64,000 bases of DNA from a virus (Duplodnaviria; Heunggongvirae; Uroviricota; Caudoviricetes): IMG/VR virus record IMGVR_UViG_2568526312_000010; one strand, given 5' to 3'. The first letter of the stretch is position 1. Each line of letters opens with the position of its first letter. The position numbers were made by a program. Of this stretch, positions 1 to 3,000 are shown one piece after another.

Positions 1-3000
1 TGCGCTAATCGCATTAATTTCTGACGTAAACGCGGACAGCGCAGGCTGATTACGCAGTACCTGTTCGATCTTCGCTTTCTCGGATGCCTCACATTCACCA
101 TCTGCACAGGCCACCAGGTATGCGGCGTTAATCACCACCTGTGCCAGATCGCGTTTTTCAAACTTTTTAATTTCCGTTGCCGCTCTGCGGGTTTTCTTTT
201 TGAAGATTCCAAACATCGTGACGTTCCTTTGGGTGGGTGAGCCAACGCCCGGGAGCGATCTGCCCACAGAGAAAGTCACACTGACCACTCCGTAAGCTCA
301 CCCCCGAAAGGCTCTGTGGTTGGTATGCGCCGGGCGTGGCGCAGATACAAAAAAGGCCCGCCGAAGCGAGCCTGGAAAATAAGTGTGGCGCGTTGTAGTG
401 GAGTCGAACCACTGACCGATTGCTTAGAAGGCAATTGCTCTGTCCGGCTGAGCTAACAACGCAGAATACCGATAATGGACCGCCATCGGGGACCCGGCCC
501 CGCACCAACAACCCTGTTATGGTGTCGTCTGCTCTTCCTGATAAGCTAATGGCGGTTTGTGATGGTGGCCCTTGCTGGATTTGAACCAGCGACCTGGCGA
601 TTATGAGTCGCTCGCTCTCACCACTGAGCTAAAGGGCCGAGCCAAAAAATAATAATCAGATGAAAATCAATAATCAAGCCCTTGCCTGGATACATATCTG
701 TCTGGCGGGAAGCCATAATAGCGGTGAAATACAGAAATAAAGTAGGACCGGCTTGAATAACCACATTTTTCTGCTACAGCCTGTCCATATCCATACCGGG
801 AACATAACATATTTACAGCAACACGCATCCGCTCTTCCAGCAACAAGCGACTGAACATGCCCCCTTCATTTTTCAGTTTTGTCTTTAACAAACTCTCACT
901 CATATGCAACTGTAGAGCAATCGCACCAAGCGTCCAGCTTGCTGATATATCTGTCTGAATTATCGCCCTGACTTTGGCACTTATGCTGGATAAACATCCA
1001 CTTAAAAACAATGACATCCGTTCATCTGTTTCAAACAGAGACAGGCAGGCCATCATAAGAAACATATCCGTGACCTCTCCGGAAAATCCCTGGCTGGTAA
1101 TTAAAGCCGCAGCCAACGCAGGATTGTTGGGTTCCAGCAACAGGTAAAGCGGAATGTCAGTCAGACGAGTCCTCGTCAGCTTATGCTGACTTTCCAGATA
1201 TTGACTTACGACGGATTCGCTTATATCGACAATTTTAACTTTGCCATAATGCATAAGGAAAAGCTCCCTGATGCATTTGGTGGCCAGAACGACTGAGCCT
1301 GGCTTAAGTGACAACGTATCCTTTTCAAGAAAAATATTAATTGGGGAGCAAACCATGATAACTGAACAGACAACAGCCATTATAATTTTACTTTCATTAG
1401 CAATTGGTTAGCTCAATTATAGCCCCAAAAGGTAAATTATCATCAACACATAAGCAAAGGACTGACAGGTGCCGCCCCCCCCACCAGCCGCCCATTTACC
1501 ACAAATAAAAAGCCTTCAGGACTGAATGCGTCTGTAACAACCGCACTGATAGTCTGCCAGACCCGCCATAACCAGCTGGGTCAGTATTAACTGGCAGCGT
1601 TCGCGTGAAAGGTAAGTATTCTGCGCAATCTCCCCGACTGTCGCCGGTTCGGTAACGCTTAATTCATTAAACACCACTCTGGCGGTTTCTGTCATATCCT
1701 GCTGTTTTAGCATGTCTTTTTCCCTTTTCCGGTTAACGTGACATACCAATAACTCTTGTCGAAAAAGCCAGCAAGTTGAAAGACCGGTATTAGCAACCAC
1801 CAGCGCGTTTAACGCCCCGTGCCGTTTTTCAGTCATAAAAAAACCCGCAAAAAGCGGGCTCTTTCAAATGTCCATGTCTGCTATTCGCCTCGCGGTACAG
1901 CTTTGCGAAGCTTACCGGAATTGAAGCAGTTTTTACGTCAAAAAGCAATAACTTTTTTCTCTATACCAAAAGCCATAACCATTGGTTTGTACAAAATAAA
2001 TTCTGCCACCTTTAGCCAATGCTCAATGCGTCTTTCACAGGTTCTTAAACTCCATTCCGGATGTGCATCATTCAGCAATTCAGCCATTTTGCGCTTAGTC
2101 ATCCCCCGCCCCACATAACGCTGACTCAGAACATTGAGCAGCCCGGGATAACCTGCCAGTACTTCACCAATAACCCTATCGATTATTAACGCCTCTGAAT
2201 CGGTACAATGTGCCAGCCAGCTTTTTTGATTGCCGTTGATCATATCCCGCAAAAAAGCCTCAAGTTCAGGTTTGTCCAGACCCGCTTTTTTCATCCTCCG
2301 GAGCGCCTCGTTAATTGCCGTTTTTGTCAGCTTTTTAGAGGTCAGTAATTGGTTGAACATATTTCCCGTCTTACCGTCGCCAATATACGACCAACGCCCC
2401 CACATACGCAGTTTCCCCTGGATCCAGACACTTTCCAGCGTTTTCAGGCGTAAATGCTCACCGCTTTTGCCTGTAATTTCCGGGTATATCATATTTATGC
2501 TCACTCACTTTCAATTTTGTAAATCTTCACGCCCAGCCGCCCACCAGAAACGAGCTAGCCGCGCACAATATTGATTTCATCAAACTGCTCGTCGTCTATG
2601 AGAAGTCCGGCATGCGTCAGCGCATCCAGTGGTGCTTTCAGGATATTGTCCAGGTCACGACGGCGCTTATCCGGTGGCTCTGCAATAATCTTTATCGCCA
2701 GCCTTCCGGACAGGTTTAATTTCAGCCGCTGCTGGCGAACAATAAGTGCCACATCCCGGCGATAACGCTCACCGGCTTTTGATACAAAATATGTGCTGCC
2801 ACGACGTCGCCAGTAGGTGTTCACCGTCGGCGGGTAAGGCAAAACAAACTCTATACGCATCAGTAACCTCTTTTACCCGAGCACGCCGGTTGCAAAGGCG
2901 TGATCAAGAAAACGAAAAATTAAATCAACCTGGGAACCATGCTTTTCTTCGAACGCCAGCGGATCCGCATGAAGCTCGTTGTGATGCTCCCGACACAGCG

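What the first reader, a model, noticed from the sequence alone, without database searches (positions are those of the whole stretch)
667..1836. AraC-family regulator and a small ORF inserted between tR' and the tRNA cluster in P1 only
P2 runs directly from tR' into the tRNAs, whereas P1 has an extra ~1.2 kb carrying an AraC-family regulator. Prophage-borne AraC-type regulators in pathogenic E. coli can control chromosomal virulence loci, and this one would be expressed with the late operon.
Basis: inference. Interest (0 to 1): 0.45.

Follow-up and report, generated by a model that had tools for sequence, protein, structure and literature searches.

The report
Known prophage regulator PsrB of O157

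Summary
On the minus strand, P1 carries a Q-like antiterminator (1938-2504), a strong terminator hairpin (1837-1866), a small ORF, an intact 237-aa AraC/XylS gene (667-1380), then tRNA-Ile2 and tRNA-Arg. In P2, Q and the tRNAs are only 210 nt apart.

The window's first 10.6 kb are identical to E. coli O157:H7 Sakai prophage Sp11. The AraC gene is ECs_2191 = Z2104 = psrB: published Z2104 and Z2102 primers map exactly, with the published amplicon size and spacing. Reviews of the primary work report that PsrB binds the gadE and hdeA promoters, raises acid resistance, and represses LEE type III secretion through GadE and YhiF.

Three corrections:
- The small ORF is 65 aa, not 106.
- Together with the terminator and leader, it is a common lambdoid backbone module (54% of complete E. 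coli genomes). In phiP27 and SfV it precedes a DNA methyltransferase. Only about 0.8 kb (about 643-1443) is psr-specific.
- That cassette brings its own promoter-like site with a perfect TATAAT.

Sp11 has a disrupted repressor and does not excise or replicate, so "expressed with the late operon" is unproven and probably not the main route.

Novelty: already known. Interest: low.

The parts
1938..2504 (-). Q-like late antiterminator of P1 (Sakai ECs_2193; EDL933 Z2102). It is a different type from P2's Q.
   Evidence: Pfam DUF1133 3.7e-105 and Phage_antitermQ 5.9e-08. PHROG 753 'anti-termination protein Q-like' 5.8e-81. Published Z2102 primer maps at 2200-2219. Sakai annotation.
1837..1866 (-). 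Intrinsic terminator: CCCGC-UUUUU-GCGGG stem-loop plus a U7 run. It is the first terminator after Q (tR' candidate) and the 5' edge of the conserved small-ORF module.
   Evidence: RNA fold -18.9 kcal/mol, z = -5.07. The stem is invariant in Sp11, Sp4, phiSTEC1575-Stx2k, phiP27 and SfV. Annotated as a terminator in SfV. The simple consensus scan did not list it.
1714..1836 (-). Non-coding leader of the small ORF, holding a nearly invariant stretch of about 70 nt. It was mis-read as the N-terminal 41 codons of a 106-aa ORF.
   Evidence: Alignment A1 columns 125-197 are almost invariant. Indels of 1-3 nt just 5' of the ATG break the long frame.
1516..1713 (-). 65-aa helix-turn-helix protein of unknown function (ECs_2192; PHROG 331). 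It is a real gene and part of the lambdoid backbone, not of the psr cassette.
   Evidence: pN/pS 0.00-0.19 between phage copies. 302 homologue clusters across Enterobacteriaceae. PHROG 331 3.9e-37, unknown function. AF2 model pLDDT 85; best Foldseek matches are winged-helix domains, with E > 0.3. Pfam TrmB 16.7 bits, below the 25.6 cut-off.
1416..1443 (-). Sigma70-like promoter candidate for psrB (ATGATA, 16-nt spacer, TATAAT). It lies exactly where homology to phages without psr ends.
   Evidence: Scan 10/12. Homology to phiP27 and SfV stops at about 1444. Conserved in Sp4 and phiSTEC1575-Stx2k. Not tested experimentally.
667..1380 (-). psrB (ECs_2191 / Z2104 / WP_000301797.1): 237-aa AraC/XylS regulator, YdeO-like over its full length.
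   Evidence: Pfam and NCBIfam hits. GadX DNA-binding domain alignment. Z2104 primers at 963-982 and 1101-1120, giving a 158-bp amplicon as published. 91% identical to the Sp4 ECs_1087 product, psrA. 31% identical to K-12 YdeO from residue 1, E = 6e-34, which supports the 237-aa start over Sakai's 195-aa call.
649..677 (-). Promoter-like site directly upstream of tRNA-Ile2 (TTGATT, 17-nt spacer, TATTAT). Its -35 overlaps the end of psrB.
   Evidence: Scan 9/12. An equivalent site sits at the same distance from P2's tRNA-Ile (49829-49801). Alignment A3.
563..638 (-). tRNA-Ile2 (anticodon CAT; ileZ5), 28 nt downstream of the psrB stop codon.
   Evidence: ARAGORN calls it Met/CAT. Rfam tRNA 72.5 bits. 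Sakai annotates it as tRNA-Ile.
463..562 (-). Degenerate remnant of the middle tRNA (argN).
   Evidence: Aligns with the tRNA-Arg(TCG) of P2 and Sp4 but is not called as a tRNA. phiP27 carries the same variant.
386..462 (-). tRNA-Arg (TCT; argO5), followed by a terminator-like hairpin at 354-373.

Best explanation
The 237-aa gene is psrB (prophage-encoded secretion regulator B), carried on the defective lambdoid prophage Sp11 (part of O-island 57) of E. coli O157:H7.

What it is (shown here). It is a cargo ('moron') cassette of about 0.8 kb. It occupies the slot between a conserved post-Q module (terminator, leader, 65-aa HTH ORF) and the phage tRNA genes. Other lambdoid phages carry a DNA methyltransferase in that slot. 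The protein is a full-length YdeO-like AraC/XylS activator with an intact two-HTH C-terminal DNA-binding domain.

How it acts (from the literature, not tested here). PsrB binds the gadE and hdeA promoters. This raises GadE/YhiF and the glutamate-dependent acid-resistance regulon, and GadE in turn represses the LEE type III secretion operons.

How it is expressed (inferred). In the lysogen, transcription probably comes mainly from the cassette's own sigma70-type promoter at 1443-1416. Transcripts may run on into tRNA-Ile2, because no convincing terminator separates them. Read-through from the Q-dependent late promoter is architecturally possible, but Sp11 is not inducible.
For: Identity:
- Window 1-10635 is identical to Sakai NC_002695.2 from position 2,189,266.
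- Sakai annotates ECs_2191, ECs_2192 and ECs_2193 in prophage Sp11. Sp11 also carries nleG5-2, nleG6-2, nleG2-3 and pchB.
- Published primers for Z2104 map at 963-982 and 1101-1120, giving the published 158-bp amplicon. A Z2102 primer maps at 2200-2219, with exactly the published 1080-bp spacing.
- Reviews name Z2104 on OI-57 as psrB.
- The protein is 91% identical to the Sp4 ECs_1087 product, which is psrA. The published figure is 90%.

Family:
- Pfam HTH_AraC and HTH_18.
- GadX DNA-binding domain 3mkl, E = 2.2e-18 over residues 134-233.
- The best NCBIfam model is YdeO, 2.1e-30 over residues 1-229.
- 31% identity to K-12 YdeO starting at Met1.

Selection: pN/pS is 0.24-0.45 among the three psr copies compared.

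Cassette anatomy:
- Homology to phiP27 and SfV covers 1444-1848 only. Those phages carry a methyltransferase where psr sits here.
- Sp4 and the Stx2k phage phiSTEC1575 share the whole small ORF-psr-tRNA arrangement.
- The promoter-like site lies at the junction.
- The cassette GC content is 41.7%, against 51.7% for the window.

Function: reviews of Tree 2011 and Yang 2015 (PMC10877973, PMC8565820, PMC4456613, PMC10057817, PMC3355084).
Against: - The primary papers (Tree 2011, Yang 2015, Bender 2012) are not in the library, so function rests on reviews.
- According to those reviews, deleting psrB had little effect on secretion. The effects were seen with psrB supplied in trans or induced, so its contribution at native expression levels is uncertain.
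- The promoter is a consensus match only. The number of promoter-like sites in the region does not exceed the shuffled expectation (3 found against a mean of 3.6).
- The Shine-Dalgarno sequence before the 237-aa start is weak, and Sakai annotates a 195-aa product.
- The reviews place psrA (Z1789) on OI-50, whereas PMC13502914 places psrA at ecs1087 on Sp4. I did not reconcile the two naming systems.
Confidence: 0.88

Rival explanations
1. psrB has no independent expression and is transcribed only as part of the Q-antiterminated late operon, as stx genes are in Stx phages. It would then act only in cells undergoing prophage induction.
For: - psrB has the same orientation as Q and the late genes and lies downstream of the first terminator after Q.
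- No strong terminator lies between the small ORF, psrB and the tRNAs.
- In the Stx2k phage phiSTEC1575 the psr homologue sits in the same transcription unit position, directly upstream of the tRNAs and stx2k.
Against: - The cassette has its own near-consensus promoter at the junction.
- Sp11 has a disrupted repressor and integrase, and shows no circularisation, replication or packaging with or without mitomycin C (PMC2669165).
- The paralogue psrA was not up-regulated under SOS-inducing SMX-TM treatment (log2FC -0.26 to -0.82; PMC5931665 supplement).
- psrA responds to the sRNA HnrS and to host-cell attachment rather than to induction (PMC13502914).
Confidence: 0.12
2. In this strain psrB is functionally redundant, silent cargo of a decaying prophage. 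The active regulator is psrA, and psrB merely persists.
For: - Reviews state that psrB deletion had no significant effect on type III secretion, whereas psrA deletion did.
- Sp11 is defective.
- The AT-rich composition (41.7% GC) is typical of H-NS-silenced DNA. This last point is an inference.
Against: - The ORF is intact and at least 99% identical in 588 complete genomes.
- pN/pS is below 1.
- Induced PsrB binds the hdeA and gadE promoters and improves acid survival and passage through the mouse stomach (review of Yang 2015).
Confidence: 0.15
3. The regulator acts mainly on phage targets, such as the adjacent tRNAs, the late genes or the 65-aa HTH gene. Effects on host genes would then be a side effect of over-expression.
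For: - Tight physical coupling to the small ORF and the tRNAs in three independent prophages.
- The -35 of the tRNA promoter overlaps the end of the gene.
Against: - No phage target has been reported.
- The same small ORF and tRNAs work without psr in most phages.
- The closest chromosomal relative, YdeO, is itself a gadE activator (established knowledge; similarity shown).
Confidence: 0.04

Closest known systems
PsrB (Z2104, OI-57, EDL933) / ECs_2191 (Sp11, Sakai)
   Same: It is the same gene. The DNA is identical to Sakai, and the published Z2104 primers, amplicon size and spacing to Z2102 all match.
   Different: Nothing differs. The Sakai annotation starts 42 codons later (195 aa), which the YdeO alignment argues against.
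PsrA (ECs_1087 on Sakai Sp4; Z1789 in EDL933)
   Same: 91% amino-acid identity. Same cassette and same position: small ORF, then psr, then tRNA-Ile. The DNA is 92.6% identical from 346 to 1848. Same reported pathway through GadE and YhiF.
   Different: The upstream Q module differs (a 123-aa Q plus a CAAX protease). All three tRNAs are intact in Sp4. The Sp4 small ORF is frameshifted. Deleting psrA gives a secretion phenotype, whereas deleting psrB does not.
YdeO, GadX, GadW and AppY (E. coli K-12 AraC/XylS regulators of the GAD system) and PatE (OI-8)
   Same: Full-length similarity to YdeO (31% identity, E = 6e-34). The DNA-binding domain resembles GadX. All feed into gadE and acid resistance. 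AppY and PatE are also prophage-borne.
   Different: It is not an orthologue. The NCBIfam scores of 106 (YdeO) and 87 (GadX) bits are far below the equivalog cut-offs of 348 and 500. There is no safA-like partner: the upstream 65-aa ORF is unrelated to SafA. Sequence similarity to PatE and AppY was not measured here.
Late-region cargo slots of lambdoid phages (stx genes of Stx phages; L23-L24 of phiP27; orf47-orf48 of SfV)
   Same: Same position downstream of Q and its terminator, next to the ileZ/argN/argO tRNAs. The terminator, leader and 65-aa ORF are homologous at 82-94% DNA identity.
   Different: In phiP27 and SfV the gene after the 65-aa ORF is a DNA methyltransferase, not an AraC regulator.

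Membership tests
AraC/XylS transcription factors | C-terminal domain of about 100 aa with two helix-turn-helix motifs | tested here: met
   Pfam HTH_AraC 2.9e-13 in two stretches and HTH_18 over residues 155-230. Gap-poor alignment of residues 134-233 to the GadX DNA-binding domain 3mkl, E = 2.2e-18, and to Rns, CsvR and ToxT.
AraC/XylS transcription factors | N-terminal companion (regulatory or dimerisation) domain | tested here: inconclusive
   Residues 1-130 align with the N-terminal part of YdeO from Met1. No fold or ligand test was done.
Psr regulators (PsrA/PsrB) of EHEC | Identity with the locus named psrB (Z2104 on OI-57) | tested here: met
   Z2104 primers give the published 158-bp amplicon at 963-1120. 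A Z2102 primer maps at 2200-2219 with the published 1080-bp spacing. Z2104 is named psrB.
Psr regulators (PsrA/PsrB) of EHEC | About 90% identity between PsrA and PsrB | tested here: met
   215/237 residues (91%) identical to the ECs_1087 product, which PMC13502914 calls psrA.
Psr regulators (PsrA/PsrB) of EHEC | Carried on a lambdoid prophage together with T3SS effector genes and a pch regulator | tested here: met
   Sp11 carries nleG5-2, nleG6-2, nleG2-3 and pchB. Sp4 carries pchA and remnants of tccP2 and espV.
Psr regulators (PsrA/PsrB) of EHEC | Activates gadE, yhiF and hdeA, and represses LEE secretion | not testable with these tools
   Known only from the literature, through reviews.
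YdeO (NCBIfam NF007407 equivalog) | Score at or above the curated cut-off of 348 bits | tested here: not met
   106.1 bits. It is a relative, not an orthologue.
GadX (NCBIfam NF007432 equivalog) | Score at or above the curated cut-off of 500 bits | tested here: not met
   87.3 bits, covering only residues 107-232.
Lambdoid Q-PR'-tR' late control unit | Q-family antiterminator gene immediately upstream | tested here: met
   DUF1133 and Phage_antitermQ. PHROG Q-like.
Lambdoid Q-PR'-tR' late control unit | Intrinsic terminator shortly downstream of Q | tested here: met
   Hairpin plus U7 at 1837-1866, z = -5.07. Conserved in five phages.
Lambdoid Q-PR'-tR' late control unit | Late promoter PR' with a Q-utilisation site between Q and the terminator | tested here: inconclusive
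   No consensus sigma70 site was found between 1866 and about 2000 on the minus strand. The qut site of DUF1133-type Q proteins is not known to me.
TrmB-family / winged-helix regulators (65-aa ORF) | Pfam TrmB at or above the gathering score of 25.6 bits | tested here: not met
   16.7 bits, E = 0.0066. NCBI nevertheless names many copies 'TrmB family'.
TrmB-family / winged-helix regulators (65-aa ORF) | Winged-helix or HTH fold | tested here: inconclusive
   The AF2 model has pLDDT 85 and four helices. The best Foldseek matches are wHTH domains (PcaR, Z-alpha, PefI, IscR) with TM about 0.65 and probability up to 0.99, but every E-value exceeds 0.3.

The most novel reading that the evidence does not exclude
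The least-explored element is not psrB. It is the module in front of it: a terminator, a nearly invariant leader of about 70 nt, and a 65-aa HTH protein (PHROG 331, function unknown) under strong purifying selection. This module is present in more than half of complete E. coli genomes. It sits directly upstream of a cargo gene: a DNA methyltransferase in phiP27, SfV and RM10466, or a Psr regulator in Sp11, Sp4 and phiSTEC1575. It could be a dedicated controller that gates expression of whatever occupies that slot, much as C proteins control restriction-modification genes. If so, it would set when psrB is made.
Probability: 0.12. Interest if true: 0.35.

Novelty: already known. Interest (0 to 1): 0.1.

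Why it matters
PsrB shows how prophages rewire core regulation in EHEC. A phage-borne YdeO-like activator takes over the chromosomal GAD acid-resistance circuit and, through GadE, tunes type III secretion. That has been published since 2011-2015, so the scan result is a correct rediscovery, not a lead.

The modest additions from this analysis:
- The cassette limits (about 643-1443).
- A promoter candidate at the cassette junction.
- The corrected start codons: 237 aa for PsrB and 65 aa for the neighbouring ORF.
- The neighbouring ORF belongs to a separate, widespread and uncharacterised backbone module.

Tried and rejected
1. The 106-aa reading of the small ORF. Rejected because frame-breaking indels lie 5' of the internal ATG in homologous phages, RefSeq and Sakai annotate 65 aa, and only the 65-aa part is conserved.
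2. A link between the 106-aa ORF and DUF1133 Q-like proteins, suggested by shared membership of a 90% cluster. The sequences are unrelated, so this is a clustering artefact.
3. The idea that the 65-aa ORF plus psrB mirrors the K-12 safA-ydeO operon, since both upstream genes are 65 codons. There is no similarity at E <= 100, so the resemblance is coincidence.
4. The idea that P2's short Q-proximal promoter-to-terminator unit is the three-copy prophage sRNA HnrS (PMC13502914). The 91-nt piece occurs once or twice per genome in 1103 genomes, including non-EHEC strains. That does not fit HnrS, so I make no claim.
5. Known RNA families in 1-6000. Only the two tRNAs and sok were found.
6. Primary papers (PMC4288888, PMC3416394, Tree 2011 DOI) and the EDL933 record NC_002655 are not held. 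Identity was therefore established through published primers instead.
7. Expression data for ECs2191 in the PA20 SMX-TM supplement. The stored file is cut before that gene, and only ECs1086 and ECs1087 were retrievable.
8. A deep homologue search and a structure prediction for PsrB itself were not run. They would not change the verdict.
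Full report
**1. What is in the sequence**

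All relevant features lie on the minus strand. Reading 5' to 3' on that strand:
- A 188-aa Q-like antiterminator at 1938-2504 (Pfam DUF1133 3.7e-105, Phage_antitermQ 5.9e-08; PHROG 'anti-termination protein Q-like').
- A GC-rich hairpin followed by seven U at 1837-1866 (-18.9 kcal/mol, z = -5.07, none of 200 shuffles as stable).
- A small ORF ending at 1516.
- A 237-aa ORF at 667-1380.
- 28 nt further on, tRNA-Ile2(CAT) at 563-638.
- A degenerate tRNA-like stretch at 463-562.
- tRNA-Arg(TCT) at 386-462.

**2. Comparison with P2**

In P2 the Q gene (50002-50697) is of another type. A hairpin plus T-run lies at 49913-49938, and tRNA-Ile begins at 49791. The gap from terminator to tRNA is therefore 121 nt in P2 and about 1200 nt in P1.

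BLAST of P1 against P2 gives 93% identity for P1 1-642 with P2 49154-49795, and for P1 2492-3934 with P2 50685-52121. Nothing aligns in between. The two prophages therefore differ in the whole Q-to-tRNA segment, not by a clean insertion. No second copy of either protein exists in the window.

**3. Identity**

The 2.3 kb around the finding is 100% identical to many E. coli O157:H7 chromosomes. Window 1-10635 is identical to Sakai NC_002695.2 from position 2,189,266. Sakai annotates the genes as ECs_2193 (antiterminator), ECs_2192 (hypothetical) and ECs_2191 ('phage regulatory protein'), all inside prophage Sp11. Sp11 also carries nleG5-2, nleG6-2, nleG2-3 and pchB.

Two reviews state that psrB is Z2104 on O-island 57 of EDL933, the island that holds nleG2-3, nleG6-2 and nleG5-2 (PMC10877973, PMC8565820). 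A typing paper lists primers and EDL933 coordinates for Z2104 and Z2102 (PMC4763077):
- The two Z2104 primers match the window once each, at 1101-1120 and 963-982. This gives the published 158-bp amplicon inside the AraC ORF.
- A Z2102 primer matches at 2200-2219 inside the Q-like gene.
- The 1080-bp spacing between the amplicons is the same in the window and in the published coordinates.

The AraC gene is therefore Z2104 = ECs_2191 = psrB. Its product is 91% identical (215/237) to that of the full 237-codon ORF at ECs_1087 on Sp4, which the Tree laboratory calls psrA (PMC13502914). This matches the published 90%.

**4. The protein**

The protein hits Pfam HTH_AraC (2.9e-13, two stretches) and HTH_18. 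Residues 134-233 align almost without gaps to the crystallised DNA-binding domain of GadX (3mkl, E = 2.2e-18). Weaker matches are to Rns, CsvR and ToxT.

The best NCBIfam model is YdeO (2.1e-30, residues 1-229), followed by GadX. Both scores are far below the equivalog cut-offs (106 against 348 bits, and 87 against 500). BLASTP against K-12 YdeO gives 31% identity from Met1 to residue 233 (E = 6e-34). The N-terminal motif M-x-(V/L)-(V/A)-C-S-V is shared by PsrB, PsrA, the phiSTEC1575 homologue, a 59%-identical homologue in strain RM10466, and YdeO. This supports the 237-aa start used by PGAP over the 195-aa start in the Sakai record.

Among the three psr copies compared, pN/pS is 0.24-0.45. 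The gene occurs in 829 of 5426 complete E. coli genomes, usually in two places, and its best copy is at least 99% identical in 588 records.

**5. The small ORF and the real limits of the cargo**

In phage records, window 1444-1848 (small ORF, leader and terminator) is found at 82-94% identity in many lambdoid phages that lack psr. These include phiP27, SfV and numerous Stx2a phages. In phiP27 (L23-L24) and SfV (orf47-orf48) the small ORF is followed by a DNA methyltransferase and then by the tRNAs or lysis genes. SfV annotates the hairpin as a terminator.

Only phiSTEC1575-Stx2k shares the complete arrangement: small ORF, psr, three tRNAs, then stx2k. Sp4 shares the arrangement from 346 to 1848 at 92.6%.

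A five-way alignment shows three things:
- The hairpin stem is invariant.
- A leader stretch of about 70 nt is almost invariant.
- Homology between the psr-bearing and methyltransferase-bearing phages ends at about 1443.

Indels of 1-3 nt just upstream of the ATG at 1713 break the 106-aa frame, so the gene is 65 aa (1516-1713), as RefSeq and Sakai annotate it. It is a real gene:
- pN/pS is 0.00-0.19 between copies.
- There are 302 homologue clusters in Escherichia, Shigella, Salmonella, Klebsiella, Citrobacter and Buttiauxella.
- It matches PHROG 331, unknown function, at 3.9e-37.

An AlphaFold model (pLDDT 85) is a small helical bundle. Its best structural matches are winged-helix DNA-binding domains, though none is statistically significant for so small a protein. 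Pfam TrmB is below threshold.

The module (1444-1866) occurs in 2914 of 5426 complete genomes, up to 8 times per genome. That is far more than psr. The psr-specific cargo is therefore only about 0.8 kb (about 643-1443), with 41.7% GC against 51.7% for the window.

**6. Expression**

The psr-specific segment begins with the best promoter-like site in the region: ATGATA, a 16-nt spacer, then TATAAT (10/12) at 1443-1416, 36 nt upstream of the ATG. It is conserved in Sp4 and phiSTEC1575. This is a consensus match, not proof, and the number of such sites in the region is not above the shuffled expectation.

No convincing terminator lies between psrB and tRNA-Ile2. A second promoter-like site (677-649) sits at the same distance from the tRNA as its counterpart in P2.

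Read-through from a Q-dependent late promoter is architecturally possible. However:
- No PR'-like site was found between Q and the hairpin.
- Asadulghani et al. report that the Sp11 repressor and integrase are disrupted, and that Sp11 neither circularises, replicates nor is packaged (PMC2669165).
- In strain PA20, psrA (ECs1087) was not induced by an SOS-inducing drug (log2FC -0.26 to -0.82; PMC5931665 supplement). The stored file is cut before ECs2191.

I therefore rate 'expressed with the late operon' as unproven and probably not the main route.

**7. Function (literature)**

The following comes from reviews of Tree et al. 2011 and Yang et al. 2015:
- PsrA and PsrB raise GadE and YhiF and thereby repress LEE type III secretion.
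- PsrB binds the hdeA (-132 to -45) and gadE promoters, and increases acid survival and passage through the mouse stomach when induced.
- Deleting psrB alone has little effect on secretion, whereas deleting psrA does.

The similarity to YdeO and GadX, which are themselves regulators of gadE, fits this. None of this function can be tested with the tools here.

**8. Verdict**

The corrections are:
- The small ORF is 65 aa and belongs to a separate, widespread backbone module.
- The Q modules of P1 and P2 also differ.
- Late-operon expression is doubtful.

Novelty: already known. Interest: low. The only under-explored element is the conserved terminator-leader-65-aa HTH module that precedes this cargo slot.

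Noticed in passing
window 463-562 (-): The middle tRNA slot of P1 aligns with tRNA-Arg(TCG) (argN) of P2 (49632-49708) and of Sp4, but it is degenerate and is not called by ARAGORN or Rfam. phiP27 carries the same degenerate variant, so the decay predates Sp11.
   Followed up: partly
window 1714-1836 (-): The leader between the terminator and the 65-aa ORF contains a stretch of about 70 nt that is almost invariant across five otherwise diverged phages, and is more conserved than its flanks. No consensus promoter or known RNA family explains it.
   Followed up: partly
L004 13344-13583 (Sakai Sp4, ECs_1086): The Sp4 copy of the 65-aa ORF has a 1-nt deletion that replaces its C-terminal third. 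psrA therefore sits behind a broken copy of the small gene, while psrB sits behind an intact one.
   Followed up: partly
L008 3975-4928 (E. coli RM10466 prophage): A 241-aa Psr homologue (59% amino-acid identity) lies in a different slot, downstream of the tRNAs and directly after a DNA-methyltransferase remnant. The intact small ORF-methyltransferase pair sits upstream of the tRNAs. This hints at how psr genes displaced methyltransferases.
   Followed up: no
window 4932-5106 (-): A complete sok antisense RNA (Rfam RF01794, 113.5 bits), next to the hok/mok gene that RefSeq annotates in P1 (Hok/Gef family protein in TR01; MokC regulator ECs_2198 in Sakai).
   Followed up: no
window 49905-50018 (-): P2 has a promoter-like site overlapping the end of Q (50018-49990) and a hairpin terminator (49938-49913). 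Together these would give a transcript of about 70 nt. The piece occurs in 1103 of 5426 genomes, including non-EHEC strains, once or twice per genome, so it does not fit the three-copy sRNA HnrS reported for Sp9, Sp10 and Sp12.
   Followed up: partly
window 1516-1836 (-), protein cluster database: The 106-aa translation is filed in one 90%-identity cluster together with 184-aa DUF1133 Q-like proteins, although the sequences are unrelated. This is a clustering artefact that could mislead automated annotation.
   Followed up: yes
window 667-1380 (-) versus Sakai record: Sakai annotates ECs_2191 and ECs_1087 as 195 aa (588 bp). Alignment with YdeO and distant homologues from Met1 indicates that the 237-aa form is the real product.
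   Followed up: yes
window about 10,636-49,500 versus TR01 (NZ_CP033605.1): P2's tRNAs lie 1246 bp further along in the window than colinearity with strain TR01 predicts. An indel of about IS size therefore distinguishes the two strains somewhere between P1's early region and P2's tRNAs. I did not locate it.
   Followed up: no
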